Shown: in pieces, positions 1 to 22,087 of the stretch | Layout of the letters: the number at the start of each line of letters is the position of its first letter | Position numbering within the stretch: position 1 is the first letter of the stretch | Assembly (NCBI GenBank): GCA_038222655.1 | Contig: JBBRHM010000001.1 | Location: 3,350-67,349 of the forward strand | Direction: 5' to 3' | Length of the DNA stretch: 64,000 bases | From: Chitinophagales bacterium | Lineage (GTDB): Bacteria > Bacteroidota > Bacteroidia > Chitinophagales > Chitinophagaceae | Made by a program: the position numbers and the translations under genes | Notes under the pieces: generated by a model | What the model was told of the DNA's origin: nothing | The model's database searches: none | Seen by the model: the letters and a program-made list of their open reading frames with translations, nothing else

Positions 1-101
1 GCCCCCTGTTCAAATAACAATTGTGCATGTGCCCGGCCTAAAACCCCGCAGGCACCTAACAAAAGAATTCTTTTATTTTTTATACCGGTATCTATACTCA
101 T
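1..101 (-). CDS. N-terminus of an SDR oxidoreductase (PtmA/ElaC-like), runs off the window edge
   Basis: Read by hand (not in track): ATG at 101 overlaps the neuA stop (ATGA); MSIDTGIKNKRILLLGACGVLGRAHAQLLFEQG has a Rossmann GxxGxxG motif. Confidence 0.75.
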   Translation of the reverse strand, partial: MSIDTGIKNKRILLLGACGVLGRAHAQLLFEQG

Positions 102-814
102 ACTAGTAACCCATGTTTGCGTTTCATAAGATATTCTATAAGAAGAAAGTCAAAATCGGAATCCACATCCAAACTTTTCTCACTGCCGATATCATAACCT
201 TCTGTATGGCCATCCAGTAAATAATCGGCACGGCGTATATAGTCTGGCGATAATGCATAAATACTTGCTACATGTTCAAACACCGCAGGAGCATCCTGTC
301 TGCGAACAACTGTACCGGGTAATTTTTTACAAATTTTTAGGGCACCTTCTTCATTTGATTCGAGCAAATTGAAGTAGGGATTTTTGCGTGCTTCACAAAT
401 TGAAAAGACACCATCAACACCATGAATTTTGCGTTCATGAAATTTCGCAATACATGCGGAGATATCGCTAACATCTCTTAGCGGACTGGTGCAATCGAGA
501 TCTACATATAAATCATAGAACTCATTATAATGCTTTTCACATGCGTCGAGTGCGTGTTTAAATACACCAAATTTTCCGGCTTCCGAAGTTGATAAATATT
601 CCGGGCGAAGAAATGGTGTTTCGGCTCCTGCAGCACGTGCTATCTCAGCAATCATTTCAGAATCTGTTGACACAACTACTTTATCAATTTCTTTTGTAGC
701 CAACGCCTGTTCAATAGACCAAACGATTAACGGTTTGCCAAGCATGGGTCTGATATTCTTCCCTGGTAACCCACGGCTTCCTCCACGGGCTGAGATTACA
801 CAAATTGTTTTCAT
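98..814 (-). CDS. neuA: CMP-nonulosonate synthetase (acylneuraminate cytidylyltransferase, NeuA/LegF/PtmB family)
   Basis: ISARGGSRGLPGKN N-terminal motif, VVSTD, RP..LS, CTSPLR, SLDVD. Confidence 0.9.
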   Translation of the reverse strand: MKTICVISARGGSRGLPGKNIRPMLGKPLIVWSIEQALATKEIDKVVVSTDSEMIAEIARAAGAETPFLRPEYLSTSEAGKFGVFKHALDACEKHYNEFYDLYVDLDCTSPLRDVSDISACIAKFHERKIHGVDGVFSICEARKNPYFNLLESNEEGALKICKKLPGTVVRRQDAPAVFEHVASIYALSPDYIRRADYLLDGHTEGYDIGSEKSLDVDSDFDFLLIEYLMKRKHGLLV

Positions 815-1794
815 ACACTTATTTTTTGACCTTTCGCATCTGCCTCCCTTGCACCAACTGCCACACGAAGTGCGGCTATGCCATCTTCAAGAGAACACAA
901 AGGTTGTATAGAAGGGTTTTGTATCCTTTGCAGGAAATGAGACATATGTGAAAGAAACAGATCGTTCCTTTGAAAATTATCGGCAACCCTGTTAATCACT
1001 GAAGTTGATTCCGGCGAATCACTCGATAAAGTTCCATCAATATATGACCAGTTAAAGATGGCTGTGCTTGTCATCACTTCTGCTTCACAACGGTAAACAG
1101 GACTTGCCATATCTAATTGAATATGTCCGGTAAGGCCGTTGGTGTGTGTAAGTAAGAGATTGGTAACATCATCGCCCTTGATATCCAAAGAACTTCGTTT
1201 AGATAACACAGCATTTACATTTTCAACCGGACCAAAAAGCCAGAGTGCGATATCTATTTGATGGATAAGATCAAAAAGTGCTCCGCCGCCACGTGCTGCA
1301 TCAGCACTATAGATATTTCGATAATCTTTACCCTTTCTCCACGCATCTAACCGGTGCCCCATCGCAAGCCGGTAAGTAAGTATTTGACCGCTATCCTGCT
1401 GTTGCAATATTTTGGATAGTGCAATAAGGTTTTGATGAGCCCTGAACTGGCAACCTACTTCTACAATTTTTCCCGAAGCTGCATCAGCCAGTTGGTCAAT
1501 TCCTGTTAAATTATTTGAAAGCGGCTTCTCAATAAAAAGTGCCTTCCCTGCGCGCAAAACATCTATGGCAATGCCCATGTGATTATCAGTGGCTGTTGCA
1601 ACAACCACTGCATCTGCGTTATTAATCGCATCATTGAGGTCAGCATTTACATCAACATTAAATTCATCCTTAACAGATGAAAGTAAATGAGCCTGTGAGC
1701 GCCAAACGGAAACCTTTGCTCCCAGTTGCAGTAAATTGGCAATATGCCTTTTTCCTATTGAACCGGCCCCACAAACAAGTACAGACTGTTGCAT
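811..1794 (-). CDS. Gfo/Idh/MocA-family oxidoreductase (PtmF/ElaA-like)
   Basis: GAGSIGKRH Rossmann motif, FIEKP, GGALFDLIHQID; start moved to ATG 1794 (MQQSV), 1 nt after the neuC stop. Confidence 0.85.
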   Translation of the reverse strand: MQQSVLVCGAGSIGKRHIANLLQLGAKVSVWRSQAHLLSSVKDEFNVDVNADLNDAINNADAVVVATATDNHMGIAIDVLRAGKALFIEKPLSNNLTGIDQLADAASGKIVEVGCQFRAHQNLIALSKILQQQDSGQILTYRLAMGHRLDAWRKGKDYRNIYSADAARGGGALFDLIHQIDIALWLFGPVENVNAVLSKRSSLDIKGDDVTNLLLTHTNGLTGHIQLDMASPVYRCEAEVMTSTAIFNWSYIDGTLSSDSPESTSVINRVADNFQRNDLFLSHMSHFLQRIQNPSIQPLCSLEDGIAALRVAVGAREADAKGQKISV

Positions 1795-1795
1795 A

Positions 1796-3022
1796 TTAAC
1801 GGAACCATCCATTTTCATGTTTGCCTTCCAATGTCATCCCTTTCCTGAGAATATATTTAGGATCAAGATTTACTGTTGCCAGGCTTTCTGCAATTAATTT
1901 TCCGGAATTTCCACCACCATATGGATTAACTGTTGCAGCACATACCGAACGGAATGCATCATCAGCAATACATTTTTTTATAGCGTTATATATTTCCTCT
2001 GCATTATAATCTGCATCAATTACATTATCTCCCCGTAACCTTCCCTGCTGGCGTGATCCGATATTGACTGTAGGACAGCCGAAAACCGGTGTTTCTTTAA
2101 TGCCGGATGATGAGTTTCCAACACAAGCTACGCGCCATCCCGGCTGCTTAGCCAATGCCAATATTCCATGATATACAAAACGACCCAATGATGCGTGCAA
2201 TTGTATATTCGGGTTATTGAGTTCTGAAGTTGTCCTCAAATCTTTTGACATGGTTTCGCCACCCGCATCGTTATTCGGGTAAGTAAGAATTACCTGTACA
2301 CCTTCATCAGCCAGTTTTATCAAGGCTTCTAAGGATGGTTGCAATTGTGAAGCACCGTCTTCAAATTCTGTGGTAACCGAATGTTGTGTAAAGAGAACAA
2401 CTGGTCTGTTCTTATCAAGCTTTAATCGTGCAATAAGATTTTCCGGTGTTTCAAATGAACCGTCTTTTATCAGGTCAATTGCAGGGAAGCCAACTGTGTG
2501 CACCCGCCATTCATCTTCACCCATAGCAAGAATACGGTTGCTTGCCTGTTGATTGGTTGTATAATGTAAGTGTGCAAGTTTTGACATGGCATGACGAACT
2601 GAATCATCCAAAGCGCCTCCTTCTGTAATATCTCCGCCTTCCACATGTGCAGTTGGAATATTCATTTGCGAACTCGTAATTACAGCGGCCAATCCTTCAA
2701 ACCTGTCGGCGTAAACAAGAAAAACATCGGGGTTCAATTCATCTAATACCGGTGTTAGGTTAAGTATACCCGAACCAATGGCGCGAGCAGTAGAAGTTCT
2801 TTTATCACCACTCATATCAATTTTCACTTCAGCATAAATATCAAACCCATCTTTTTTTATTTCTGAAATGGTAGAACCAAAATTATTGTCCAGGTGTGCG
2901 CCCGATACAATAAGGCGGTACTCAAGTAAAGGATGATTTTTAATTGCCTGTAAAATCGGGAACTGTAATCCGTATTCCGCACGGTTTCCCGAAAAAACGG
3001 CAATCACTCTTTTTTTATTCAT
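1796..3022 (-). CDS. neuC: Hydrolysing NDP-GlcNAc 2-epimerase (NeuC/LegG family)
   Basis: GNRAEYG, SGAHL, ADRFE, HVEGG, DDSVRHAMSKLAHLH, GNSSSG, NIGSRQQGR. Confidence 0.9.
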   Translation of the reverse strand: MNKKRVIAVFSGNRAEYGLQFPILQAIKNHPLLEYRLIVSGAHLDNNFGSTISEIKKDGFDIYAEVKIDMSGDKRTSTARAIGSGILNLTPVLDELNPDVFLVYADRFEGLAAVITSSQMNIPTAHVEGGDITEGGALDDSVRHAMSKLAHLHYTTNQQASNRILAMGEDEWRVHTVGFPAIDLIKDGSFETPENLIARLKLDKNRPVVLFTQHSVTTEFEDGASQLQPSLEALIKLADEGVQVILTYPNNDAGGETMSKDLRTTSELNNPNIQLHASLGRFVYHGILALAKQPGWRVACVGNSSSGIKETPVFGCPTVNIGSRQQGRLRGDNVIDADYNAEEIYNAIKKCIADDAFRSVCAATVNPYGGGNSGKLIAESLATVNLDPKYILRKGMTLEGKHENGWFR

Positions 3023-3836
3023 TGTTCATTTTCAATTTAAGTAAATGTGAAAGTCCCTGTACAAGGTCTACTTCGGGCGACCAATTAAGCAGTGACTGTG
3101 TTTGGGATATATCAATCAGTAAACAGGAATCTTTTTCTGCGACTGTTTTCGAAACAACTTTCCTGTTGCTTTCACCGGCAAGCTGCAATGTTTTTATAGC
3201 GAGGTCTCCTACACTTATTCCTATGCCACTTCCAGCATTTATGATACAACCGGGCATATGCATTGATGCTGCTATAATACAAGAAGCCGCATCGTTTATC
3301 CAAAGAAAATCCCTTACGGGTGATGTATCTCTCAGGATCAATTCATCCTTTCCGGGTATTTGGCGCAGGATGTCCGCAAGAACTGTATTTGATCCCATAC
3401 CCTGTCCATATACATTGGAAAAACGTATAGAAGTTCCTCCGGCTTCAGCGATAATTTCTTCGCAAGCAAGTTTTACTTTTATATACTCACTCGTTGCTGA
3501 TACTTCTTCATCAGAACGCCGTGGATATTGTTTCGAATCTCCGTATACAACAGAACTGGAAGCATAGATGATATGTTTCCATTGTCCTTGTGCCAGTTTA
3601 CTGCAAAGGCTGGTCTCATCTCCTTCTGACAATGTAGCTGCATCACGAGGTTGTGCAAGATGTATCAAAACACTGTTTGGTGAAGAAGCTATATCCGCAT
3701 AAGAATTAACAGTAGAGAATCCCTTCAGCGTTCTCCGCGACACCCCTCTAACAGGAATTTTTTTTTCTGAAAACTGTTGTATCAATGCCCGTCCCATGAA
3801 ACCTGTTGCACCAGTAATCACTACCTCAAAAGACAT
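3015..3836 (-). CDS. NAD-dependent epimerase/reductase (extended SDR)
   Basis: ITGATGFMG, ASSSVVYG, YxxxK (YIKVK), RFSNVYG, RDFLWIND. Confidence 0.8.
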   Translation of the reverse strand: MSFEVVITGATGFMGRALIQQFSEKKIPVRGVSRRTLKGFSTVNSYADIASSPNSVLIHLAQPRDAATLSEGDETSLCSKLAQGQWKHIIYASSSVVYGDSKQYPRRSDEEVSATSEYIKVKLACEEIIAEAGGTSIRFSNVYGQGMGSNTVLADILRQIPGKDELILRDTSPVRDFLWINDAASCIIAASMHMPGCIINAGSGIGISVGDLAIKTLQLAGESNRKVVSKTVAEKDSCLLIDISQTQSLLNWSPEVDLVQGLSHLLKLKMNNE

Positions 3837-3871
3837 TCATTAAGTTTTATTAAGAACATATTTATAGACTA

Positions 3872-4912
3872 TTATTTGCTTATATCATCGCGGTTGATCC
3901 TCGTCCCGCGTGAAATTTTCACCAATGCCTTTTTACCTATTAATGTTTCATAATCCGAAGCATTAAAATCGCCACCTCCGGGTCTTCTCAACCAAAGGTT
4001 TTCTTCAGTCAGTTCTTCACCTGGTGCGATCTCTTTATTTGCAACTAGTGAAGCGAATGCAAATGCTATGGTTGGCGCTTCCGCTGAAACAGCCGCTTTG
4101 CTTCCGCCACGTGCCGAAAAAATTGTTTTTGAACCATTGATCAGGTCTGAAAGTGCAGCCGGATCCATTGAGCAAACAATATCAGGGCCGGGGCGATTCA
4201 TGCTGTCCGTAAAATGTCTTTCTAAAATAGAAGCACCCAATGCTACTGCGCCCAAACAGGTATAATTTGAAACAGTATGATCCGATAAACCGATCACTGC
4301 ATCTGGAAATGCTTCTTTTAAAATTTTCATAGCACCCAAACGCACCAACTCCGGTGGAGTGGGGTATACATTGGTGCAATGAAGCAATGCAAACGGAATA
4401 TTTGCTTTGCGCAATATATCAACAGAAGGTCGAACCGTTTCGATTGAATTCATACCCGTGCTGATGATAACAGGTTTGCCAAAACGCGCAATGTATTTTA
4501 TTAAAGGATAATTATTGCACTCACCCGACCCGATTTTGAACGCAGGAATATCAAATGCCACCAGCCTGTCTACAGCCACTCTTGAAAAAGGTGTACTGAT
4601 AAAAATAGCGCCGCGTTGCTGAACATATTCCATCAGCTTTCTCTCATCAGATTCATTGAGTGCACAGCGGGCCATTATTTCATAGATCGATTCAACCGTA
4701 TGTCCGGGTATCACTGATTTTGCTTCATCAGACATCTCGTCTTCAACAATATGTGTCTGGTGTTTGATAATTTCAGCGCCGGCATCAATTGCTGCATCAA
4801 CCATTTGTTTCGCTGTTTCCAATGAGCCTTCATGGTTGATACCGATCTCGGCAAATACTACCGGTGGATGGTCATCCCCTATCAACCTATTCTGTATTTT
4901 AAATTCAGCCAT
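3872..4912 (-). CDS. neuB: Nonulosonate (N-acetylneuraminate) synthase with C-terminal SAF/AFP domain
   Basis: AEIGINHEGSL, KHQTHIVEDEMS, ISTPFS, KIGSGE, LHCTNVYPT, GLSDHT, LERHFT; the motif style matches Neisseria SiaC/NeuB as recalled. Confidence 0.92.
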   Translation of the reverse strand: MAEFKIQNRLIGDDHPPVVFAEIGINHEGSLETAKQMVDAAIDAGAEIIKHQTHIVEDEMSDEAKSVIPGHTVESIYEIMARCALNESDERKLMEYVQQRGAIFISTPFSRVAVDRLVAFDIPAFKIGSGECNNYPLIKYIARFGKPVIISTGMNSIETVRPSVDILRKANIPFALLHCTNVYPTPPELVRLGAMKILKEAFPDAVIGLSDHTVSNYTCLGAVALGASILERHFTDSMNRPGPDIVCSMDPAALSDLINGSKTIFSARGGSKAAVSAEAPTIAFAFASLVANKEIAPGEELTEENLWLRRPGGGDFNASDYETLIGKKALVKISRGTRINRDDISK

Positions 4913-4935
4913 TTATTTTTTTTACTGATTTATAA

Positions 4936-5946
4936 TTAGACGTTGTAGATATTCGATTTATAATTTTTTAAATTTTCAGTCTGTGTAAACCAATCAATCG
5001 TTTCTGAGAGCCCGCGTTTAAATCCGTCTAGGCCACCATATTCCGGCGACCAGTTAAATAATTCTTTTGCTTTTGCATTAGCGGCCCACAATCTTTCTAC
5101 TTCTGAATTTTCCGGCCGCATACGTGCTTCATCTGTGATGATCTCGATTTTTGTATTCATCACTTCCGCGATAAGTCTAACCGTGTCTCCAACTGAAATT
5201 TCGTAATTACTTCCCAGATTAATTACTTCGCCTAATCCTTTATCTGAATTAGCAGCTGCCATAAATCCTGAAACAGTATCTTTTACATAATTAAAATCGC
5301 GCGTTGGAGTAACAGAACCAAGTTTAATATGTCTTTGACCATTTGCAATTTGCGTAATGATTGTTGGTATTACGGCTCTTGCCGACTGGCGCGGGCCATA
5401 CGTATTAAACGGCCGTACAATAACTACCGGGGTATTGAAAGATGCATAAAAAGAAAATGCCATCTGGTCAGCTCCTATCTTGGATGCCGAATAAGGTGAT
5501 TGCCCCTGTAGTGGATGTTCTTCCGTAATAGGTACAAACCGTGCGGTTCCGTAAACTTCACTGGTTGAAGTGTGAATTACGCGTTGTACACCTAATTCGC
5601 GTGCGGCCTGTAAAACATTCAAAGTGCCTTTTACATTTGTGTCTACGTAGGTATCAGGCGAATGATACGAATACGGAATCGCAATAAGTGCCGCAAGATG
5701 GAGTACAATATCACAACCTTTCATTGCCTCTTTCATTCCATGAGGGTCGCGGATATCGCCTGAAAATACTTCTACATTTTCACGGATCTCTTTGGGAGAC
5801 TGGTCGAGCCAACCCCATGAGTTAAATGAATTGTATAAAACAAATGCCCGCACTTTGTAACCCTGCCGAACGAGTTCCTCGGTTAGGTGCGAACCTATAA
5901 AACCATCCGCTCCCGTAACTAGTATTTTTTTGTCTGTGATACCCAT
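4936..5946 (-). CDS. legB: NDP-GlcNAc 4,6-dehydratase, LegB type
   Basis: VTGADGFIGSHL, YNSFNSWGWLD, LIAIPYSY, TSTSEVYG, QSPYSASKIGAD, RPFNTYGPRQSARAVIP. Confidence 0.85.
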   Translation of the reverse strand: MGITDKKILVTGADGFIGSHLTEELVRQGYKVRAFVLYNSFNSWGWLDQSPKEIRENVEVFSGDIRDPHGMKEAMKGCDIVLHLAALIAIPYSYHSPDTYVDTNVKGTLNVLQAARELGVQRVIHTSTSEVYGTARFVPITEEHPLQGQSPYSASKIGADQMAFSFYASFNTPVVIVRPFNTYGPRQSARAVIPTIITQIANGQRHIKLGSVTPTRDFNYVKDTVSGFMAAANSDKGLGEVINLGSNYEISVGDTVRLIAEVMNTKIEIITDEARMRPENSEVERLWAANAKAKELFNWSPEYGGLDGFKRGLSETIDWFTQTENLKNYKSNIYNV

Positions 5947-5977: not shown

Positions 5978-7282
5978 TTATGCAAGCCAGTCTCTATTTT
6001 CCCTAAGAAATTTTGCAGAAAAATGAGTAAGTACTTTTCCATGGACATTCCTACCAAGAGAATTTTTGATATCTAAAGGGAAAATTTCCCAGAATTTTTT
6101 TTGCAAGTCATCATCCACGGTCATTTTCACCCATTCCTTTTTGATCCGTTCGAGTAATTCAAATACGGCATCTTTGATTTCTTCAGGGCTATTATCTACC
6201 AGTTCCACTCCTTCTCTTTGGTATTCATTTGAATAAACACAGAAACCAACATTCCGGTCAAATATTTCAGAAACCGTCAGCAACCGCTTTTCAGAAGTCA
6301 GCCAATGTTTTTTTGGCAAATAAACTGAATCCTTTATAAAGGTAGAAACCAGTCCCATAGGTGCTGCATTTACAAATACCATTGGCCTTCTAAAGATCAT
6401 CGGTACAGCATCGTATCCGGTTCCAACGGTAATGCAGAACGCACATTTTGCACCGAGGTAAATGTCCATAAAATCAGTTCGAAACCCTGTTGTGGCATAA
6501 TCAATCACTTTAGGATTGTTTGCTTTCATGGCCGTATTAACCACTTCACCCATACGAAGTACATAAAATCCACGCTCCGCAAGTGCATCTGCAGCCATTA
6601 CATAAGACTGAATATCGCTATCCCTGTAGCTATGGTAATTCCATTTTTCAGGGTTAGGAAGTACCGCATTCAGGTAAGCACTATCTCTTACTATAAGGCA
6701 AACAAATTCAGCATCTCCAAGTATACCTAATTTTGTTAATCCTGCTTTACCGCGGGCTTCTTCATCTGGTGTAAAAGAGAGATGCGCGGGCGAGTTTGCC
6801 ATTAAACTTTTTGTGTCACGTCCATATTGAAAATCGCTTTCTGAATTTTCAACTTCATGGATAGCTCCTCCGGCCAAAGAACGGTTCATAAAAAACAATG
6901 GCTCAAGAAGCCATTTGGGCCAGATGTGTAAATGGCGTTTCCACATTTTCCCTAATTGTTTATTCGCCAGCCTGGCACCTCCAAAAAAAGCAATATCAAT
7001 ATATTTTTGTTTAGGTACATTAATCCCCGCATCTATTTCGCATAGATAAAACTCAGTATTAGCTGCCAGATGGCCAATGCGCAGACCTATCAGCCGGTTT
7101 ATCCTGATCAGCAATAAGGGACGCATCAACCTCATAATTATAAGGAAGATAAAAGCAGGAATTAACCCTATTAAAAACTGGAAAGCGCGGTTGAATATAG
7201 AAAAAAAAACCTTCCAGCCACCTTGTACAACCGATGAATATTGCCGATTGAAAAACTGAAACGCCCTGCTGATTTTACTCAC
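5978..7282 (-). CDS. Putative glycosyltransferase, TIGR04372-like
   Basis: RIGHLA, YRDSDI, MDIYLGAKC, GTGYDAVP, DNSPEEI motifs recalled for this family; GTG start. Confidence 0.65.
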   Translation of the reverse strand: MSKISRAFQFFNRQYSSVVQGGWKVFFSIFNRAFQFLIGLIPAFIFLIIMRLMRPLLLIRINRLIGLRIGHLAANTEFYLCEIDAGINVPKQKYIDIAFFGGARLANKQLGKMWKRHLHIWPKWLLEPLFFMNRSLAGGAIHEVENSESDFQYGRDTKSLMANSPAHLSFTPDEEARGKAGLTKLGILGDAEFVCLIVRDSAYLNAVLPNPEKWNYHSYRDSDIQSYVMAADALAERGFYVLRMGEVVNTAMKANNPKVIDYATTGFRTDFMDIYLGAKCAFCITVGTGYDAVPMIFRRPMVFVNAAPMGLVSTFIKDSVYLPKKHWLTSEKRLLTVSEIFDRNVGFCVYSNEYQREGVELVDNSPEEIKDAVFELLERIKKEWVKMTVDDDLQKKFWEIFPLDIKNSLGRNVHGKVLTHFSAKFLRENRDWLA

Positions 7283-7329: not shown

Positions 7330-8007
7330 TTAAATGTTGGCTGCCATGTATGTTTCAGGTGTTCCGATATCCAGGAATGTTTCTTTTGTTTCGTAGGTAT
7401 AAATTTTGCACATTAGCAGTGGTAATATCTCTGTACTAAAATCGGTCATCCCGGGTTTCAACTGTTTTAATAAATCTGCTGAAAGAATATATATTGCTCC
7501 ATTAGCCAGGTTACCTGGTGGAGACTGTTGCTTTTCATACATTTTAATTACCACTCCCTCTTCGTCTATTTCAAGAATTCCACATGAAGATGGATTATCT
7601 GTCTGGAATGTCATCATTGTCATTACACATTTTTGTGGGCGGTTTTGATGTGCCTCCAAAAAAGAGCCAAAGTCTGCCAAACAGTAATTGTCAGCGTGTA
7701 TTAGTAATGCGTCCCCGCCTTCAAAAAAATCTATATTAGCCATTAATGTTCCGGCAGTGCCTAATAGTTCTGGTTCATATGCGATCGTAACTACATCCTT
7801 ATAATTACTAGTATTAATAAACTCTTCCACAACTTTTGGCAGGTAGTGTGTATTCACTAAAAAAGGAGAAATACCTTCCTTAGACAATCGCTCAAGCCAG
7901 ATCTCCAATAAAGGCTTACCCCTTATTGGCACAAGACATTTGGGAATAGTATTAGTGAGTGGCCGCAGGCGGGTTCCAAAACCTGCGGCAAGAAGTAGCG
8001 CTTTCAT
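7330..8007 (-). CDS. Sugar-1-phosphate nucleotidyltransferase (HddC/GmhD-like)
   Basis: LLAAGFGTRLRPLT..PKCL, LLGTAG, NGAIY, DIGTPE; true start ATG 8007 overlaps the upstream stop (ATGA). Confidence 0.88.
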   Translation of the reverse strand: MKALLLAAGFGTRLRPLTNTIPKCLVPIRGKPLLEIWLERLSKEGISPFLVNTHYLPKVVEEFINTSNYKDVVTIAYEPELLGTAGTLMANIDFFEGGDALLIHADNYCLADFGSFLEAHQNRPQKCVMTMMTFQTDNPSSCGILEIDEEGVVIKMYEKQQSPPGNLANGAIYILSADLLKQLKPGMTDFSTEILPLLMCKIYTYETKETFLDIGTPETYMAANI

Positions 8008-9443
8008 TTTGTTAACTCTTCTAAAAGTTCTTTTGTTTTCAGTGGTGTATTGCCAACACGGCCTACCTGAATAGCTGCCGCGAGCGAGCCAATGCAGGCA
8101 GCTTCCCAAATGGTACCTCCAACTGCCATTACCATTGATGTTGCAATCAGTAAAGAGTCTCCTGCTCCTGAGACATCTTTAGGCGATGAATTCAATGCGG
8201 CAATCCGATCTGTGAACATATTTCCCTTCCGGTCATTAATACCAACGTAGATAAGCATTCCCTCTGAACCCAACTTCAATAAAATATTTTTTGCGTTTGA
8301 AGTCGCCAGCATTTTATCCGCCAATATTACCAATCCATCATCATGGTTACGTATACTCAGTCGTGCTTCTCGTTCAGTTGGTGTTATTAAATCCATGTTT
8401 TTAAACCTCGAAATGTCTCCTTCCTGCGAAGAAGACTGGCTATCGGCAGCAAGAAATATTTTTTTATCGATACAAAGTTCTATTATCTTATCAACCAGGT
8501 CCTGTGGCAGGCATCCATAATTAAAATCAGAAAAAACCAATAGGTCACACGAACCGATGCACTCTTTCACCTGCGCTAATATCTGTATTTGCAGTTCTTG
8601 TGAGATAGGATTCTGGTGCAAATGACTCACCCTTAAAAGTGTTTTGCCTTTGCTGCGAAATCTTTGCTTTAAAGTAGTTGGGCGGGTGGAATCAATTATC
8701 AGTTTATGATCAATTCCATAATCCGATAATTTCTCAGTTGCATAATTCCTTAATTCATCATCACCGGTAATAGATATAAATCTAACGTCGGCACCTAATC
8801 CTTTTGCATGTGCAGCCACAATTCCTGCACCACCGATAAACTTAATCGAATCAATTGGGGTAACCACTATTGTTGGATCCTCCTGTGACATACCCAATGC
8901 TTCACAGGTAATGTATTCATCAATTATCAGGTCGCCGATAATACACACTTTCAATTTTGAAATTTTTGTAACCCATTGGCTTAAAGATGCGACACTAAGT
9001 CGATTTCTCGCAATAAACTCGTTAGGAAGACTTATTGATCTCGTTTCAGCAAACGAAATTTCATTTCGTATTAAATCAATTGAAGAAAATAATGATTCGC
9101 CGGAACTGAAAATTAATTTACCGCCGTAGCTTTCCAAAATTGAACTTTCAATATTTTCTGAAAATTCATGTTCTTTCCCCTTTACAACAAGGTCAGGTTT
9201 AATACCCTCCAGTACAGAAATCAAATCTTCATCAAATATAAAAGACTCATCAATCCATGAAATACTACGGATACTTTCTAACCGCAGATCTTGTTGTATA
9301 TAAGCAGCTTTTCCTGCAATCTTATCGCTTTCTACACCAACGATCAATCGAGTTCCACATTCTTTGGCAAACCGCAATAAACGAAGATGTCCAACATGAA
9401 GTACATTAAAGTGACCTGAAACAAAAACGACTTTTTCACTCAT
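8004..9443 (-). CDS. Bifunctional HldE/RfaE-like protein: N-terminal nucleotidyltransferase plus C-terminal PfkB kinase
   Basis: N-term GHFNVLHVGH (HxGH), RLES, VKGKE; C-term IGDLIIDEY, GGAGIVA, LVFSDFNYG, ITPTEREA, DVSGAGD. Confidence 0.85.
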   Translation of the reverse strand: MSEKVVFVSGHFNVLHVGHLRLLRFAKECGTRLIVGVESDKIAGKAAYIQQDLRLESIRSISWIDESFIFDEDLISVLEGIKPDLVVKGKEHEFSENIESSILESYGGKLIFSSGESLFSSIDLIRNEISFAETRSISLPNEFIARNRLSVASLSQWVTKISKLKVCIIGDLIIDEYITCEALGMSQEDPTIVVTPIDSIKFIGGAGIVAAHAKGLGADVRFISITGDDELRNYATEKLSDYGIDHKLIIDSTRPTTLKQRFRSKGKTLLRVSHLHQNPISQELQIQILAQVKECIGSCDLLVFSDFNYGCLPQDLVDKIIELCIDKKIFLAADSQSSSQEGDISRFKNMDLITPTEREARLSIRNHDDGLVILADKMLATSNAKNILLKLGSEGMLIYVGINDRKGNMFTDRIAALNSSPKDVSGAGDSLLIATSMVMAVGGTIWEAACIGSLAAAIQVGRVGNTPLKTKELLEELTK

Positions 9444-9491
9444 ATTATGAGACCATTATTTCGGAAAACAGATACTATTATAAATTGCATA

Positions 9492-10661
9492 TTATGCTTT
9501 CTGGAATATCACATTATGCGTTCCCATACCCCAGGTAGAAATAAAAACCTCTTCAGTTTGACAATAAGCGGTCAAGTCGCCTGTTTTCTTGCTGCTGATC
9601 ATTTCAAAAATATCCTTTATCATCTTGAAAAGGTTTTGCACATACGCTAAATCATCTGTCATGGGTATATGTGCCTGTAGGAATTTATTTATGTCGGCAA
9701 TCAATCCAAGTGCTTCTTTACAGCCCTCTTCGGAATCAGCATCGATAAGACCGTCAGTGATTTCAACAATCCTTTTCAGTTTGGTACTCAGTTCTTCAGA
9801 ACTTACCGGTATAAAACATTTATTTCCTAAAAAATGACTGAGACGGCTTTGCTGAATAAATGAAACAGATGAATTTAATTCGCTTTCTGCAGTAAAAGGT
9901 TTTTTGATCCAGTCCATCGAATGTGCATTCCGGTAAGTTGGCCATGAAGAGAATAACCTGAATCCTTCAGAATGTGCATCACGTAAAAGATCTGCAGGAT
10001 CTATCAGGTATTTTAATCTTACGAATGGATTTTCAATAACATCCATAAACCACGATTCGATTTTTCGGGTATGGATGATACTGTTCCATTTATTAAGGAA
10101 AAGCGTTTGTGCCAGTTCAAGGCCTTCGCCTCCCTGTCCGTTTCTTTTCACAGAATTGTAAATCGCTTTTTGCAATAATTCAATAAACCCTCCATATAGG
10201 TCAATAAAACTTATTACAAACAAACCATCTTCTTCAAGACATTCTTTTGCTTTTTTGATCCAGGCAATATTTGGCTGTATCGTATAAATAAAGCCTTCCG
10301 CATCGATCACATCAAATTTCGATTCGTTTTTGAATTCCAGAAGTGATGCCGCCACGAGGCCATTGATGCTACTTTCCAAACCATATTGCGACAAATAATT
10401 ACGGATATAACTATGCGCTTCTATATTGGGTTCAACAAGGGTTAAAGTGGCACCCCATTTAGCGAACACCAAAGCATTTTCTCCTGTATCAGGGCCAAAC
10501 TCTAATATTTTTTTACCCTTGAAAAAAGTATAGGGCAGGTTAAGGCGATAAAAAAAGTTTTTACGCTGTTCTGAGTACCTGTTCAATTGCTCATCATTGC
10601 CAAAAGCGGCATATGTTGGGCGGATATCTTTTGTTTCATAATAATTAAACAAACTTTCCAT
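9492..10661 (-). CDS. Class I SAM-dependent methyltransferase
   Basis: KILEFGPDTG SAM motif, FDVI, long unassigned C-terminal half. Confidence 0.7.
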   Translation of the reverse strand: MESLFNYYETKDIRPTYAAFGNDEQLNRYSEQRKNFFYRLNLPYTFFKGKKILEFGPDTGENALVFAKWGATLTLVEPNIEAHSYIRNYLSQYGLESSINGLVAASLLEFKNESKFDVIDAEGFIYTIQPNIAWIKKAKECLEEDGLFVISFIDLYGGFIELLQKAIYNSVKRNGQGGEGLELAQTLFLNKWNSIIHTRKIESWFMDVIENPFVRLKYLIDPADLLRDAHSEGFRLFSSWPTYRNAHSMDWIKKPFTAESELNSSVSFIQQSRLSHFLGNKCFIPVSSEELSTKLKRIVEITDGLIDADSEEGCKEALGLIADINKFLQAHIPMTDDLAYVQNLFKMIKDIFEMISSKKTGDLTAYCQTEEVFISTWGMGTHNVIFQKA

Positions 10662-10717
10662 AATCGCTAAATATTATTTTACATATTTTAATTTAATACA
10701 TCGAGGGTTTCGCTCTG

Positions 10718-11962
10718 TTATTCTACAATCCTGAAATGAGGTACAGGTATGATATACTTTCCGGCAGTTTCCAGGTATTTTTTATTTTTCCCAATAAATG
10801 TATCCGCAAAACGCCATGCAAGAATCACTACATAATCAGGTTTCTTTTCATACATAGCATTGGATGGATATACCGGTAAATGATGGCCAGGGCTAAACCT
10901 GCCCTGTTTAGCAATATTATCGTCAACGAGATAATCGAAATATTCTCCCATTTCAAAATGATAAATCAGTGTAGTTCCGGTTACAGAAGCACCAAAACCT
11001 GCTACAGTTTTACCTTCCGCTTTCGCTTTTCGGAGAAAATCAAGCATCTGCTGTTTCAGACCGTCTATCTTCTGCGCATACTTTTCGTAAGTTTCTTTTT
11101 TATAGAGACCATAATTTTCTTCGAAACTAATCAGCTCTTCAACGCTTTTATCTTTTGCTCTTGGCCCGTCCTTATGCTGTACAAAATAACGCAGCGAACC
11201 TCCTTTGGTGGGAACCCTGTCTACTGAAAAAAGCTCCAGCCCGTGTTTCTCAAATAGTGTTTTTACAGGTTTAACAGAAAAAGAAGTGATATGCTCATGG
11301 TATATGAAATCAAATACCATATTCTCTACAAGATCGGCTAAATAATAACTTTCAAAAACGTATACACCTTTCTCATCCAGCAATTCTTTAATGCAGGCAA
11401 CCCATGTATTGATATCATCAATATTGGCAAATACATTATTGGAAGTGATCAGTTTTGGCTTGCTATGTTCTGCTATTATCTTTTTAACCAGGTCCGGACC
11501 GAAATAACCATTCATGGTTGGAACACCGTTTCCATTGGCTAATTCGGCAATATGTGGTGCCGGTTCAATTCCCAATGCATTCAGCCCGTTTTGCTGAAAG
11601 AAATGTAAAAGAGTTCCATCATTACTTCCAATATCTACTACAAGTGATTTATCTTCTAATTTAGATTTAGCTACTACATCGGCAGCGTATTGTTTAAAAT
11701 GACTATCCAATCCAAAAGAACTAGAAGTGTTATATATGTATTCGCCATACAAAACATCTGAATCGATTACATCGGGCAACTGTGCAAGGCCACAATCCTG
11801 GCACATAAAAAGATCAATCGGATAGGAAGGTTGAAAAACACCTACTTTTTCTTTCAGCACATATGCATCCCCGATAGGTGAAGGTTTCAGGCTAAAGAAT
11901 AATTCCATGTTTTCACTGCCGCAACCACGGCAGTCTTTTCTTCTGTAAATAACTTGATCCAT
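10718..11962 (-). CDS. NDP-sugar C-methyltransferase family protein
   Basis: CRGC...CQDC Zn motif, VDIGSNDG, GIEP, FDFIYHEH, GGSLR, GFGAS, VDDN, ILAWRF. Confidence 0.85.
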   Translation of the reverse strand: MDQVIYRRKDCRGCGSENMELFFSLKPSPIGDAYVLKEKVGVFQPSYPIDLFMCQDCGLAQLPDVIDSDVLYGEYIYNTSSSFGLDSHFKQYAADVVAKSKLEDKSLVVDIGSNDGTLLHFFQQNGLNALGIEPAPHIAELANGNGVPTMNGYFGPDLVKKIIAEHSKPKLITSNNVFANIDDINTWVACIKELLDEKGVYVFESYYLADLVENMVFDFIYHEHITSFSVKPVKTLFEKHGLELFSVDRVPTKGGSLRYFVQHKDGPRAKDKSVEELISFEENYGLYKKETYEKYAQKIDGLKQQMLDFLRKAKAEGKTVAGFGASVTGTTLIYHFEMGEYFDYLVDDNIAKQGRFSPGHHLPVYPSNAMYEKKPDYVVILAWRFADTFIGKNKKYLETAGKYIIPVPHFRIVE

Positions 11963-11963
11963 A

Positions 11964-12494
11964 TTATAAGTGATTCTGTTTGTTTATTTTTTCCTCAAGC
12001 GTTGTAATAAAATCTGCTGATCCTTGTAAATCTGCATCTTCCGGCGACCATGGTGCAAAGACGGTATCGCTCCTGTCGAAAGGACCATTGGTTGTTTCGT
12101 GAAACACCAATACCTCAGACCTGATTAGGAGGGTATGGTAAACGGGTTCGCCAATACGTAAGTAAAAGGATACACCGGAGGAAAAATCTCCCATCGGAAT
12201 TATCTTTTTTATTTCGCCATTGTCTTCAAAGAAAACGATGTCTACTTTGCCCTGGATGATATGTATAGATTCTGATTTACCCGGGTGTTTATGCGGCCTT
12301 ACATAACAATCTTTTTCATGAATGATGAGCATTTCATGTAGCCTGTCATCCACACCGCTATGGGTGCATAAACGAATCCGTCTTCTTGGATTTTGATTGG
12401 CCTCGAGTGTTAACTTCTCTATCATCCCTGCATTAGATTCTGTCAGGAGAGATGTTGAATAATATACCTCGTTATTTACTTTTTTTAGATCCAT
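11964..12494 (-). CDS. WbuC-family cupin
   Basis: RRRIRLCTH, YVRPHKH..KSE, YHTL, FHETTNGPF, FAPWSP. Confidence 0.8.
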   Translation of the reverse strand: MDLKKVNNEVYYSTSLLTESNAGMIEKLTLEANQNPRRRIRLCTHSGVDDRLHEMLIIHEKDCYVRPHKHPGKSESIHIIQGKVDIVFFEDNGEIKKIIPMGDFSSGVSFYLRIGEPVYHTLLIRSEVLVFHETTNGPFDRSDTVFAPWSPEDADLQGSADFITTLEEKINKQNHL

Positions 12495-12497
12495 ATA

Positions 12498-13715
12498 TTA
12501 TCCGGTAATAAAACTTTTCCAAAATGGTGGTAATAAATCGGAAGGTGGTATCAATGACCAGAACTGTCCGCCACCATCTACCCATTTTTGATGTTTGCCA
12601 ATTACTTTATGTTCATTTTCAACATTTACGGCCAGGAAACAGATATCAATATTGGAAGAATACAATTCGACACCGGATACAATTGGAATTTTACAACCAG
12701 GTGTAAACAGGTTTTGTTTTTCTTTTTGATCATCAAGGATAAGGTCGACATAACCACCAACCTCTAAAAAATTAAGTAGGCAGAATGTACTTGAACCTGC
12801 ACCATAGACGGCAATTTTTTTCCCTTTCTCTTTTTCGGTTTTCAGGTACTGCAGAAAATTATCTTTAAAACTGCTCCACCTGTCTGCATACTGCTGATTT
12901 AATGAAAGCAATGATTCAAGATACTTTGTATCGGGCTTTACATCTTTTGTTTTGCGGCCAATAACAAATAATGCTTCCCCGCTAAAAACAATAATATCTT
13001 CCTGAACAGCTTTAATCCCTATTTGAGCCAAATACCATTTCATTGTCTCCATAGTGAAATAATTGACATGCTCTTCCCAAAGCGCATAATTATAAGACTC
13101 AAGGCAACGTTTAAAATTTGGAACTTCTATCAAAATATATCCATTATCAGCCAATAATAGATCTATAGATTTGATCATATCCGGAAGATCACTGATATGC
13201 TCAAGTACGTGCCTGGCCATCAAAAGATCAAATGTTCCGTGTTCATCTTTGATCTTTTTTGCAGTTTCTATATTGAGATAATCATGAATTACATTGTATC
13301 CTTTCTCTTTGGCTATATTAAAGCCGTCGGTAGTGGGTTCTATTCCCATGAAATTGGTAAAACCATTTGCTGCAAAATGATCAAAGAATATCCCGTCATT
13401 GCAACCGATCTCAAAAATTTTTGAGTCTGTTGTAAACCCTTCCAGTGATTTTAAAATCTCAATTTCCTTTGGAATTTGCGGTTGCGACTTCCATGAACTT
13501 AAAGTAACATAGTTGTCGTACAATAAGTTCGGCGGACATGAATCTACCAGCTGTGTAAGACCACAGGATTTACATACATATAAGTTCATTGGGAATACCG
13601 GTTGAACTTCGTCCCTGTATTTGGTGTAATGCTTCATAATTGGATAGTTTCCAAACTCAATCAACGCTGATAGGTCGGTGCCGGAACAAAGATTACAGCT
13701 ATACAAATTCTTCAT
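12498..13715 (-). CDS. Second NDP-sugar C-methyltransferase family protein
   Basis: CNLC...CKSC, FEIGCNDG, GIEP, RHVLEHI, IEVPN, EEHVNYF, YGAG. Confidence 0.8.
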   Translation of the reverse strand: MKNLYSCNLCSGTDLSALIEFGNYPIMKHYTKYRDEVQPVFPMNLYVCKSCGLTQLVDSCPPNLLYDNYVTLSSWKSQPQIPKEIEILKSLEGFTTDSKIFEIGCNDGIFFDHFAANGFTNFMGIEPTTDGFNIAKEKGYNVIHDYLNIETAKKIKDEHGTFDLLMARHVLEHISDLPDMIKSIDLLLADNGYILIEVPNFKRCLESYNYALWEEHVNYFTMETMKWYLAQIGIKAVQEDIIVFSGEALFVIGRKTKDVKPDTKYLESLLSLNQQYADRWSSFKDNFLQYLKTEKEKGKKIAVYGAGSSTFCLLNFLEVGGYVDLILDDQKEKQNLFTPGCKIPIVSGVELYSSNIDICFLAVNVENEHKVIGKHQKWVDGGGQFWSLIPPSDLLPPFWKSFITG

Positions 13716-13786
13716 ATTTATTTTTTATTGGGAAAAGAGATTTAGGTAATTAAACCAGATTATTTACAAACGAATTAACTATTTGA

Positions 13787-14830: not shown

Positions 14831-14839
14831 GTAGTTGTT

Positions 14840-15505: not shown

Positions 15506-15906
15506 TTACTTATTGAATTTGAATGTGATAAAATTTGCTTAACGCGCCATATATTTTCAATCCGTTCCATATCTTGCCTGTTTCTCATCGATAAGCCTTC
15601 TACGCAAAAATGCAGTTCCTTTTTTTGAATCAATACTTTTTCATAGATAACATTCCTTTCTACTTCATCTTCCGGTAACTGAAAAAGGCTATATGCTGCA
15701 ATGCCGTCTAACTGTGGCAATTCATCAAGGAGTAGTTTAAAGATGAGATGGCAGTGTTCCATCGCGTATTCGCTTGCACTTAATAAAAAATGTAAGCTGT
15801 TCTTATCGCAGTAATCCCTGATCACTATGTTCTGGATGTGTTGCGGCACGCGTTCATCCATAAAACTCCTGCTGAAAACATAACCCCTTACTTTTTTCTT
15901 CCTCAT
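15502..15906 (-). CDS. Sporadic carbohydrate cluster protein (TIGR04323/LIC12192-like)
   Basis: RGYVFSRSF..ERVPQHIQNIVIRDYC, LSASEY, YSLFQLP; adjacent to the 2OG oxygenase as recalled for this family. Confidence 0.7.
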   Translation of the reverse strand: MRKKKVRGYVFSRSFMDERVPQHIQNIVIRDYCDKNSLHFLLSASEYAMEHCHLIFKLLLDELPQLDGIAAYSLFQLPEDEVERNVIYEKVLIQKKELHFCVEGLSMRNRQDMERIENIWRVKQILSHSNSISK

Positions 15907-16694: not shown

Positions 16695-16696
16695 AT

Positions 16697-17626: not shown

Positions 17627-17633
17627 ATTTAAA

Positions 17634-18431: not shown

Positions 18432-18436
18432 GTGGT

Positions 18437-21048: not shown

Positions 21049-21084
21049 CGCTATGTTTGTTTGGTTAAATGATATTTATTTCGG

Positions 21085-22077: not shown

Positions 22078-22087
22078 AGGTCTTAAA

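What the first reader, a model, noticed from the sequence alone, without database searches (positions are those of the whole stretch)
1..5946. Aminotransferase-free Leg-like pathway: candidate route to a 9-deoxy-sialic (fusaminic-type) nonulosonate
Seen: the order is legB, neuB, SDR, neuC, Gfo, neuA, SDR. No LegC aminotransferase or LegH acetyltransferase follows legB, and an extra SDR (3015-3836) sits between neuB and neuC. The NeuB carries the EIGINHEGSL/KHQTHIVEDEMS motifs I recall from Neisseria SiaC (ManNAc-using), not the AEAGVNHNG style of LegI. Established: legionaminate needs LegB+LegC+LegH, and 5-N-acyl-3,5,9-trideoxy-nonulosonates (fusaminic acid) occur in Fusobacterium O-antigen. 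Inference: LegB makes the 4-keto-6-deoxy sugar, the SDR reduces C4 to OH, NeuC releases a 6-deoxy-ManNAc and NeuB condenses it with PEP, giving a 7-hydroxy-9-deoxy nonulosonate.
Basis: partly seen in the sequence, partly recalled or inferred. Interest (0 to 1): 0.72.

Follow-up and report, generated by a model that had tools for sequence, protein, structure and literature searches.

The report
Aminotransferase-free legionaminic-like sialic acid gene cassette
A Bacteroidota polysaccharide locus carries a recurring gene set that starts like the legionaminic acid pathway but swaps the amination steps for a small reductase-like enzyme and a meningococcus-type sialic acid synthase, so it probably makes a 9-deoxy sialic acid that has no described biosynthesis.

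Summary
On the minus strand, 5946 to 1 encodes LegB, NeuB, a 273-aa SDR, NeuC, a Gfo/PtmF-like oxidoreductase, NeuA and the start of a PtmA-like SDR, tightly packed or overlapping. No aminotransferase or acetyltransferase was found in the 34-kb cluster. None lies in the 2.5 kb beyond the left edge either, which holds PtmA, a methyltransferase and a PtmE-like CBS-nucleotidyltransferase.

The arrangement is a conserved cassette. All 28 species genomes with an ortholog of the 273-aa SDR have NeuC directly downstream. Most also have this NeuB type (25), LegB (24) and PtmE (23), and none has a DegT inside the cassette. Canonical clusters found through LegB have a LegC directly after LegB in 48 of 68 loci and never this SDR.

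NeuB is 66% identical to N. meningitidis SiaC. It falls in a 100%-bootstrap clade with SiaC, apart from the synthases of LegC-containing clusters.

Best reading (about 0.6): PtmE and LegB make the NDP-4-keto-6-deoxy-GlcNAc, the SDR reduces C4, and NeuC, NeuB and NeuA yield a CMP-5-acetamido-3,5,9-trideoxy-nonulosonate. "Fusaminic-type" fits the composition only. The LegB route predicts Neu/Leg stereochemistry, meaning 9-deoxy-Neu5Ac or its 7-epimer. Nothing is shown biochemically.

The parts
4936..5946 (-). LegB-type NDP-GlcNAc 4,6-dehydratase (336 aa)
   Evidence: TIGR04180 544 bits, above the 475 cutoff. It is 62-82% identical to LegBs that sit directly before LegC in canonical clusters. T128/E130/Y152/K156 are invariant in alignment A2.
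3872..4912 (-). NeuB, SiaC-type nonulosonate synthase (346 aa)
   Evidence: 66% identity over 342 aa to N. meningitidis SiaC, 506 bits. It shares a clade with SiaC at bootstrap 100/100. It is only 29-39% identical to NeuBs of LegB+LegC clusters.
3015..3836 (-). Compact 273-aa extended SDR ('SDR273'), proposed C4 ketoreductase
   Evidence: GxxGxxG, S94, Y118 and K122 are invariant. Val96 sits where LegB has the dehydratase Glu130. Arg34 after beta-2 is invariant. The AF2 model has pLDDT 91. The gene lies directly upstream of NeuC in 28/28 genomes and in 3/3 loci sampled through NeuC.
1796..3022 (-). NeuC, hydrolysing NDP-HexNAc 2-epimerase (408 aa)
   Evidence: TIGR03568 373 bits, above the 236 cutoff. 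The best solved relative is A. baumannii LegG 5ZLR at 218 bits. It belongs to a monophyletic group distinct from the LegG-type NeuCs.
811..1818 (-). Gfo/Idh/MocA oxidoreductase, PtmF-like (335 aa); accessory
   Evidence: Pfam GFO_IDH_MocA N- and C-terminal domains. It is present in about 9 of 28 cassette loci and also in canonical Leg clusters as Gfo-NeuA-PtmA. PtmF occupies this position in P. shigelloides (PMC4481668).
98..814 (-). NeuA, CMP-nonulosonate synthetase (238 aa)
   Evidence: Pfam CTP_transf_3; PseF model 121 bits, below cutoff. Best PDB match is 6IFD at 92 bits; Nm SiaB scores 73 bits.
1..101 (-). 5' end of a PtmA-like short-chain dehydrogenase (261 aa in full; the rest lies beyond the window edge)
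   Evidence: ATG at 101-99 overlaps the neuA stop. The full gene is on the 100%-identical contig L002: adh_short_C2, FlagModPtmA model 136 bits, below cutoff.
5978..7282 (-). TIGR04372-family glycosyltransferase (434 aa), candidate transferase for the nonulosonate
   Evidence: TIGR04372 229 bits, above the 45 cutoff. It lies 31 nt upstream of legB. Homologs sit directly before NeuB in L004/L019 and before LegB in a canonical cluster, L091.

Best explanation
The seven genes, together with a PtmE-like CBS-nucleotidyltransferase just beyond the left edge, form one pathway. It is a variant of the GDP-dependent legionaminic acid route in which C4 is reduced instead of aminated and acetylated.

Proposed steps:
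1. PtmE activates GlcNAc-1-P to an NDP-GlcNAc. GDP is assumed by analogy.
2. LegB makes the NDP-2-acetamido-2,6-dideoxy-hexos-4-ulose.
3. The 273-aa SDR reduces the 4-keto group with NAD(P)H to an NDP-6-deoxy-HexNAc.
4. NeuC removes the nucleotide and epimerises C2, giving 6-deoxy-ManNAc (or 6-deoxy-TalNAc).
5. The SiaC-type NeuB condenses it with PEP to a 5-acetamido-3,5,9-trideoxy-non-2-ulosonic acid. This is most simply 9-deoxy-Neu5Ac.
6. NeuA makes the CMP-sugar for the neighbouring TIGR04372 glycosyltransferase.

Shown: gene identities, gene order, absence of aminotransferase, the conserved cassette and the clade memberships.
Inferred: the reductase activity, the nucleotide, the substrates of NeuC and NeuB, and the stereochemistry.
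For: (a) Family assignments and operon packing.

(b) No DegT or acetyltransferase in the 34-kb cluster or in 2.5 kb of left flank. That flank does hold a PtmE-like gene.

(c) Conserved cassette. Of 28 species genomes with an SDR273 ortholog, 28 have NeuC directly downstream, 25 have this NeuB type, 24 have LegB and 23 have PtmE. None has a DegT inside the cassette. The genomes span Bacteroidota, Chlorobiaceae, NC10, Acidobacteriota, Gemmatimonadota, Cyanobacteria and Alpha-, Beta- and Gammaproteobacteria. Three loci sampled through NeuC instead show the same set.

(d) Contrast set. LegB-seeded metagenome loci have a DegT right after LegB in 48 of 68. All six tested pass the LegC model at 493-541 bits against a 420 cutoff. 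None has SDR273.

(e) The top-of-pathway enzymes are orthologous to canonical ones: LegB 62-82% and PtmE up to 72% identity. NeuC, NeuB and NeuA are only about 30-40% identical to theirs, so divergence begins where the chemistry would differ.

(f) NeuB is in the SiaC clade at bootstrap 100/100. It shares the pocket residue Phe288, which is Val/Ile/Leu/Ala in the LegC-linked clade (residue list from PMC6795526).

(g) SDR273 has the Ser-Tyr-Lys triad, lacks the dehydratase Glu and has an NADP-type Arg after beta-2.

(h) Minimal cassettes such as Ferribacterium (L008) hold no other redox enzyme that could deal with the 4-keto group.
Against: - There is no biochemical or glycan data.
- Sequence and fold searches place SDR273 equally near 4-epimerases (MoeE5, GalE, a UDP-GlcNAc 4-epimerase) and 4-ketoreductases (Rmd), at TM 0.80-0.84.
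- N. meningitidis SiaC, a genuine Neu5Ac synthase, nests inside this NeuB clade (88/100). Clade membership is therefore equally compatible with plain ManNAc as substrate.
- The closest Bacteroidota relatives (L004, L019) have SDR273-NeuC-NeuB-NeuA but no LegB or PtmE within 10 kb.
- The rest of this organism's genome was not available, so a remote legC/legH cannot be excluded.
Confidence: 0.6

Rival explanations
1. There are two separate pathways that happen to be co-located. NeuC, NeuB and NeuA make ordinary CMP-Neu5Ac from UDP-GlcNAc, as in N. meningitidis. PtmE, LegB and the SDR make an NDP-6-deoxy-HexNAc (QuiNAc or FucNAc type) that is used directly as a glycosyl donor.
For: NeuB is 66% identical to the Neu5Ac synthase SiaC, and SiaC nests in the same clade. 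From general knowledge, a dehydratase plus a 4-reductase is the known two-step route to QuiNAc and FucNAc nucleotide sugars. L004 and L019 keep SDR273-NeuC-NeuB-NeuA without LegB or PtmE nearby.
Against: Every SDR273 ortholog found sits directly upstream of NeuC, usually with overlapping stop and start, and none occurs in another context (28/28; 3/3). The genes of the two supposed pathways are interleaved (NeuB-SDR-NeuC-PtmE-LegB-NeuA) across many phyla. NeuA is not close to meningococcal SiaB (73 bits). PtmE orthologs otherwise belong to nonulosonate clusters.
Confidence: 0.2
2. It is a canonical legionaminic acid pathway whose LegC aminotransferase and LegH acetyltransferase are encoded elsewhere in the genome.
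For: LegB passes the curated LegB model, and the Gfo-NeuA-PtmA-PtmE genes match the 'ptm' part of canonical clusters (PMC4481668). The rest of the genome could not be inspected.
Against: NeuB and NeuC fall outside the clades found with LegC. NeuB is 29-39% identical to those, and the structurally characterised A. baumannii LegG groups with the LegC-linked NeuCs rather than with this one. No DegT lies inside any of the 28 cassettes. Nearby DegTs in L004 score 148-168 bits against the LegC cutoff of 420. The extra SDR would have no role.
Confidence: 0.06
3. It is an integrated pathway but with different chemistry at the SDR step. The SDR might be a 4-epimerase or 3,5-epimerase/reductase. The product would then be another stereoisomer or a further modified sugar, such as a methylated nonulosonate.
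For: The closest solved structures include several 4-epimerases. Methyltransferases recur inside or next to the cassette: the 298-aa one left of the window, and a Methyltransf_24 between NeuB and the SDR in six loci.
Against: Without a reductase, the LegB 4-keto product has no outlet in the minimal cassettes. The invariant Arg after beta-2 replaces the acidic residue typical of NAD-retaining GalE-type epimerases (general SDR knowledge).
Confidence: 0.14

Closest known systems
GDP-dependent CMP-legionaminic acid pathway (C. jejuni type: PtmE, LegB, LegC, LegH, LegG, LegI, LegF, with PtmF/PtmA)
   Same: The LegB ortholog is 62-82% identical to LegBs of LegC-containing clusters. A PtmE-like CBS-nucleotidyltransferase is present. 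The Gfo(PtmF)-NeuA-PtmA order and the overall gene order match P. shigelloides (PMC4481668).
   Different: There is no LegC and no LegH, and a 273-aa SDR is inserted before NeuC. NeuC, NeuB and NeuA belong to different clades from LegG, LegI and LegF of LegC-containing clusters.
Neu5Ac pathway of Neisseria meningitidis (SiaA, SiaB, SiaC)
   Same: NeuB is 66% identical to SiaC, with the same pocket residues (E25, Q55, T110, F112, K129, N184, Y186, S213, H215, E234, F288, R314). Only Asn74 differs, being His here. The logic of a hydrolysing 2-epimerase followed by a CMP-synthetase is the same.
   Different: It is linked to a 4,6-dehydratase, an SDR and a dedicated nucleotidyltransferase. NeuA is only distantly related to SiaB. 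The expected substrate lacks the 6-hydroxyl.
Fusaminic acid of Fusobacterium nucleatum O-antigen (5-acylamino-3,5,9-trideoxy-glycero-L-gluco-non-2-ulosonic acid)
   Same: The predicted elemental composition and substitution pattern match: 7-hydroxy, 9-deoxy, with a single nitrogen at C5.
   Different: The configuration is L-gluco. Its biosynthesis is undescribed in the papers searched. The dehydratase here is the retaining LegB type and not a PseB-like inverting one, so a D-glycero-D-galacto-series product is expected.
NDP-QuiNAc/FucNAc synthesis by a 4,6-dehydratase plus a 4-ketoreductase (WbpM/WbpV type; from general knowledge)
   Same: The proposed first two sugar-modifying steps are the same (dehydratase, then C4 reduction).
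   Different: Here the 6-deoxy-HexNAc nucleotide is proposed to be an intermediate fed to NeuC and NeuB, and not the final glycosyl donor. The SDR is a distinct compact family with no equivalog model.

Membership tests
Canonical legionaminic acid biosynthesis cluster | LegB-type NAD-dependent 4,6-dehydratase | tested here: met
   TIGR04180 544 bits, cutoff 475.
Canonical legionaminic acid biosynthesis cluster | LegC-family aminotransferase (TIGR04181) in the cluster | tested here: not met
   No DegT in window 1-34 kb or in 2.5 kb of left flank. No DegT inside any of 28 cassettes. Control clusters have LegC at 493-541 bits.
Canonical legionaminic acid biosynthesis cluster | LegH/NeuD-type N-acetyltransferase | tested here: not met
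   No hexapeptide acetyltransferase among the scanned ORFs of at least 120 aa. The rest of the genome was not available.
Canonical legionaminic acid biosynthesis cluster | LegI-type synthase and LegG-type epimerase (clades found with LegC) | tested here: not met
   NeuB is 29-39% identical to LegC-linked NeuBs and sits in a separate 100%-bootstrap clade. A. baumannii LegG groups with the LegC-linked NeuCs at 40-56% identity, against 34-39% to this group.
Canonical legionaminic acid biosynthesis cluster | PtmE-type CBS-nucleotidyltransferase supplying the NDP-GlcNAc | tested here: met
   A partial CBS+NTP_transferase gene lies 2.3 kb left of the window on the identical contig L002. The nucleotide specificity is untested.
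Neu5Ac (sialic acid) biosynthesis, NeuC/NeuB/NeuA | NeuB in the clade of a proven Neu5Ac synthase | tested here: met
   66% identity to SiaC, joint clade at 100/100.
Neu5Ac (sialic acid) biosynthesis, NeuC/NeuB/NeuA | Pathway starts directly from UDP-GlcNAc, with no 4,6-dehydratase | tested here: not met
   LegB, an SDR and PtmE are conserved parts of the cassette.
Neu5Ac (sialic acid) biosynthesis, NeuC/NeuB/NeuA | Product is Neu5Ac | not testable with these tools
   This needs mass spectrometry or NMR of the CMP-sugar or glycan.
Fusaminic acid producers | L-series configuration, implying an inverting PseB-like dehydratase/5-epimerase | tested here: not met
   The PseB model scores 80 bits against a 408 cutoff for the only dehydratase in the cassette. 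The Fus configuration is taken from PMC7371886.
Fusaminic acid producers | 5-acylamino-3,5,9-trideoxy composition of the product | not testable with these tools
   This is predicted from gene content only.
Extended SDR sugar 4-ketoreductases | Rossmann GxxGxxG and Ser-Tyr-Lys triad, without the dehydratase acid/base pair | tested here: met
   G9/G12/G15, S94, Y118 and K122 are invariant, and Val96 replaces the Glu of LegB. The AF2 fold matches the extended-SDR fold.
Extended SDR sugar 4-ketoreductases | NAD(P)H-dependent reduction of an NDP-4-keto-6-deoxy sugar | not testable with these tools
   Sequence and fold hits are split between epimerases and reductases.

The most novel reading that the evidence does not exclude
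This would be a widespread, so far undescribed bacterial route to a new natural nonulosonic acid, 9-deoxy-Neu5Ac or its 7-epimer. It would be built by grafting a compact 4-ketoreductase and a SiaC-type synthase onto the front end of the legionaminic acid pathway. The meningococcal sialic acid synthase SiaC would then be an offshoot of this environmental enzyme clade that reverted to, or kept, ManNAc as substrate.
Probability: 0.45. Interest if true: 0.75.

Novelty: new variant of a known kind. Interest (0 to 1): 0.62.

Why it matters
Nonulosonic acids cap bacterial capsules, O-antigens and flagella, and they shape recognition by phages and by immune lectins. The known biosynthetic families are Neu, Leg and Pse, with their epimers.

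A conserved fourth wiring would add a sugar class that current genome-based predictors label as 'sialic acid' or 'legionaminic acid'. It uses a Leg-type front end, reduction instead of amination, and a Neu-type back end.

It would give an enzymatic source of 9-deoxy sialic acids. In the papers searched, these appear only as synthetic Siglec and neuraminidase probes.

It would also offer a testable model for the unexplained 7-hydroxy-9-deoxy sugar of Fusobacterium, by analogy with a Pse-type front end. Finally, it places the meningococcal NeuB in an unexpected evolutionary setting.

Tried and rejected
- **Window contig beyond the left edge.** I could not retrieve it. Only a 5-kb identical metagenome contig was available, giving 2.5 kb of extra sequence.
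- **SDR273 function from solved structures.** The PDB sequence search and an AF2 model with Foldseek gave a generic extended-SDR answer with epimerases and reductases interleaved. This is not discriminating.
- **Named E. coli Leg cluster as an anchor.** A blastn of legB against E. coli genomes found nothing. I anchored the canonical set instead with NCBI's LegC model and the A. baumannii LegG structure sequence.
- **N. meningitidis SiaA among close NeuC relatives.** It is not in the top 120 hits, all at 64% identity or more. Its relation to this NeuC remains unknown.
- **The unassigned 'higher-carbon' CMP-ulosonic acid of Magnetospirillum (SugarBase preprint).** I rejected it as a possible product, because that sugar carries two N-acetyl groups.
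- **Literature searches** for fusaminic acid biosynthesis, 3,5,9-trideoxy or 9-deoxy nonulosonates, and aminotransferase-free Leg clusters found no description of such a pathway. 9-deoxy-Neu5Ac appeared only as a synthetic compound.
- **The NTP-transferase at 7330-8007 as the PtmE equivalent.** I rejected this. It lacks CBS domains, is only 27% identical, and sits with the heptose-like genes.

Full report
**What is in the window**

Positions 5946 to 1 carry seven genes on the minus strand. Their order and tight packing (gaps of 23 and 35 nt, then overlaps of 8, 23, 4 and 4 nt) indicate one operon.

| Gene | Position | Evidence |
|---|---|---|
| LegB-type 4,6-dehydratase | 4936-5946 | NCBIfam TIGR04180, 544 bits against a 475 cutoff; PseB model only 80 bits |
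| NeuB | 3872-4912 | TIGR03569, 377 bits, just under its 400 cutoff; PseI model 222 bits |
| 273-aa extended SDR ("SDR273") | 3015-3836 | no equivalog model |
| NeuC | 1796-3022 | TIGR03568, 373 bits against a 236 cutoff |
| Gfo/Idh/MocA oxidoreductase | 811-1818 | Pfam domains |
| CMP-transferase (NeuA) | 98-814 | Pfam CTP_transf_3 |
| SDR (start only) | 1-101 | ATG at 101 overlaps the neuA stop |

I scanned every ORF of at least 120 aa in the minus-strand cluster out to about 34 kb. No DegT-type aminotransferase or hexapeptide acetyltransferase was found.

PorV (33332-34483) and a PorU-like C25 peptidase (34703-38125) lie next to the cluster. The closest cassette relative is in a Tangfeifania MAG. 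Both place the organism in Bacteroidota.

**Beyond the left edge**

A metagenome contig (L002) is 100% identical to window 1-2572 and runs 2.5 kb further. It encodes:
- the rest of the SDR (261 aa; adh_short; PtmA model 136 bits, below cutoff);
- a 298-aa methyltransferase;
- the first 298 residues of a CBS+NTP-transferase, the architecture of PtmE.

It is not met over the stretch I could see. The nucleotide-activating enzyme of the GDP-type legionaminic route is present there.

**Is the arrangement an accident?**

It is not. SDR273 has hundreds of homologs of about 270 aa (268 at E no greater than 1e-10).

A scan of one genome per GTDB species with an alignment of the family, followed by blastp of all locus ORFs against the window proteins, gave 28 genomes with an ortholog.

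| Feature in the 28 genomes | Count |
|---|---|
| NeuC directly downstream of SDR273 | 28 |
| NeuB at least 44% identical to the window's | 25 |
| LegB at least 45% identical | 24 |
| PtmE | 23 |
| DegT inside the cassette span | 0 |
| DegT anywhere within 10 kb | 5 |

Where a DegT lies within 10 kb, it sits with other sugar genes or with a second, unrelated NeuB. In L004 these DegTs score 148-168 bits against the LegC model cutoff of 420.

The genomes span Bacteroidota, Chlorobiaceae, NC10, Acidobacteriota, Longimicrobiales, a Synechococcus MAG, and many Alpha-, Beta- and Gammaproteobacteria.

Sampling in the other direction gave the same result. Three close NeuC homologs chosen without regard to the SDR each showed NeuB-(methyltransferase)-SDR-NeuC-PtmE-LegB-NeuA, with the SDR stop overlapping the NeuC start and no DegT.

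The minimal form, as in Ferribacterium limneticum (L008), has no other redox enzyme.

**Contrast with canonical clusters**

A metagenome scan seeded with LegB returned 80 loci whose LegB is 62-82% identical to the window's.
- Of the 68 loci with room downstream, 48 have a DegT immediately after LegB, and none has SDR273.
- Six of these DegTs were tested, and all pass the curated LegC model at 493-541 bits against a 420 cutoff.
- NeuB in these loci is only 29-39% identical to the window's, and NeuC only 27-39%.
- PtmE reaches 72% identity to the PtmE of a cassette locus.

So LegB and PtmE at the top of the pathway are orthologous to canonical ones. Everything after the C4 step belongs to different lineages. 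The gene order otherwise mirrors a documented legionaminic cluster, LegB-LegC-LegG-LegI-LegH-PtmE-PtmF-LegF-PtmA in Plesiomonas (PMC4481668).

**NeuB and NeuC phylogeny**

The window NeuB matches N. meningitidis SiaC (PDB 1XUU) at 506 bits and 66% identity over 342 residues. By comparison, it scores 168 bits against B. subtilis SpsE and 139 bits against a pseudaminic acid synthase.

In a neighbour-joining tree of 84 NeuBs, all synthases next to SDR273 form one clade together with SiaC (100 of 100 bootstraps). SiaC nests among the more similar members in 88 of 100. The synthases of LegC-containing clusters form another clade.

Of the pocket residues listed for the meningococcal enzyme in PMC6795526:
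- Phe288 is invariant in the SDR273-linked clade but is Val, Ile, Leu or Ala in the LegC-linked clade.
- Asn184 is Asn or Ser in the first clade, against Thr or Ser in the second.

This is consistent with a substrate that carries a hydroxyl at hexose C4 in place of the bulkier acetamido group. That interpretation is an inference.

The NeuCs next to SDR273 are also monophyletic. The structurally characterised A. baumannii LegG is closer to the LegC-linked NeuCs (40-56%) than to them (34-39%).

It is therefore not met.

**The SDR**

Alignment of 19 family members shows an invariant GxxGxxG, Ser94, Tyr118 and Lys122. The Glu that acts in dehydration in LegB (E130, invariant) corresponds to Val96 here, so the SDR is not a dehydratase.

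The residue after beta-2 is an invariant Arg. GalE-type epimerases, which retain NAD, typically have an acidic residue there. By general SDR rules, this favours NADP(H) as a co-substrate.

The AlphaFold model is confident (pLDDT 91). However, Foldseek and PDB sequence searches return 4-epimerases (MoeE5, GalE, a UDP-GlcNAc 4-epimerase) and GDP-4-keto-6-deoxymannose reductases at similar scores.

The reductase assignment therefore rests on context and motifs, and not on homology to a characterised reductase.

**Most likely mechanism (confidence about 0.6)**

1. PtmE makes an NDP-GlcNAc.
2. LegB makes the 4-keto-6-deoxy sugar.
3. SDR273 reduces C4.
4. NeuC hydrolyses and 2-epimerises to 6-deoxy-ManNAc.
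5. The SiaC-type NeuB adds PEP.
6. NeuA activates the product with CTP.

The product would be a 5-acetamido-3,5,9-trideoxy-nonulosonate. LegB is the retaining type and the synthase is SiaC-like. I therefore expect the Neu/Leg configuration (9-deoxy-Neu5Ac), or its 7-epimer if the reductase gives the galacto alcohol.

Fusaminic acid has the L-gluco configuration (PMC7371886).

The Gfo and PtmA genes occur in only about a third of cassettes and also in canonical clusters. They are accessory, as in the 'ptm' genes of Campylobacter and Plesiomonas.

The TIGR04372 glycosyltransferase at 5978-7282 is the obvious candidate transferase. Homologs sit directly before NeuB in L004 and L019, and before LegB in a canonical cluster.

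**Rivals**

- *Two independent pathways (about 0.2).* This would be CMP-Neu5Ac plus an NDP-6-deoxy-HexNAc donor. It gains weight from SiaC nesting in the clade, and from two Bacteroidota relatives (L004, L019) that lack LegB and PtmE within 10 kb. It does not explain why the SDR is never found away from NeuC, or why the genes are interleaved across phyla.
- *A canonical legionaminic pathway with remote legC/legH (about 0.06).* This conflicts with the NeuB and NeuC clades and leaves the SDR without a role.
- *An integrated pathway with different SDR chemistry (about 0.14).* This cannot be excluded by computation.

**Novelty**

Full-text searches found no described biosynthesis for fusaminic acid or for any 7-hydroxy-9-deoxy nonulosonate. 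They found no description of an aminotransferase-free LegB cluster. 9-deoxy-Neu5Ac appeared only as a synthetic analogue.

The library does not cover subscription journals, so this absence is not proof.

I rate the finding a new variant of a known kind. The enzyme families are known, the wiring is conserved and apparently undescribed, and the predicted product is new. It is still unproven.

Noticed in passing
window 7330-24414 (-): Upstream in the same direction lies what looks like a second unusual-sugar pathway. It includes GmhA, an HldE-like kinase/nucleotidyltransferase with reversed domain order, an NTP-transferase, a split transketolase, the TIGR04323/TIGR04324 'sporadic carbohydrate cluster' pair, two C-methyltransferases and two other methyltransferases. 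It also has a WbuC cupin, a Zn-ADH, an APH-like kinase, two SDRs and a PglK-like ABC exporter. This suggests a modified or branched heptose-type sugar.
   Followed up: partly
NeuB tree; window 3872-4912 versus PDB 1XUU: N. meningitidis SiaC nests inside the NeuB clade that is otherwise tied to SDR273/LegB cassettes of environmental bacteria (88/100 bootstraps). Meningococcal SiaB is only distantly related to this NeuA. The meningococcal synthase may have been recruited from this family.
   Followed up: partly
L133:9998-17688 (also L104, L109, L110, L128, L152, L157, L158): This is another aminotransferase-free LegB cluster type. It holds LegB, a short NTP-transferase, a 276-aa SDR distantly related to SDR273 (hhalign probability 99.5, 26% identity), a radical SAM enzyme, a NeuB-like synthase, a cytidylyltransferase, a PseG-like hydrolase and a deacetylase.
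   Followed up: partly
L004 and L019 (Bacteroidota MAGs): These are the closest relatives of the window's NeuB, NeuC and NeuA (80-91% identity). They have GT4372-NeuB-SDR273-NeuC-Gfo-NeuA-PtmA but no LegB or PtmE within 10 kb. Their neighbouring DegTs are not LegC-type. Where the 4-keto sugar would come from in them is unexplained.
   Followed up: partly
L008, L017, L018, L024, L169 (between NeuB and the SDR); L008:14874-16439 and L171:11017-12588: Many proteobacterial cassettes carry a Methyltransf_24 gene between NeuB and the SDR. They also carry a roughly 525-aa Capsule_synth-like protein right after NeuA, in 10 loci. These are candidates for methylation of the sugar and for its transferase.
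   Followed up: no
window 7330-8109 (-): The mechanical ORF starts at a TTG at 8109 and overlaps the preceding gene by about 100 nt. The ATG at 8007 (MKALLLAAG...) gives a standard 225-aa nucleotidyltransferase and a 4-nt overlap, so it is the likelier start.
   Followed up: partly
window 33332-38125 (-) and 53185-58444 (+): There is a PorV plus PorU-like C25 peptidase pair, which are type IX secretion components. Further on lie a P-type ATPase and a multicopper oxidase with three heavy-metal-binding repeats, which look like a copper-handling module.
   Followed up: no
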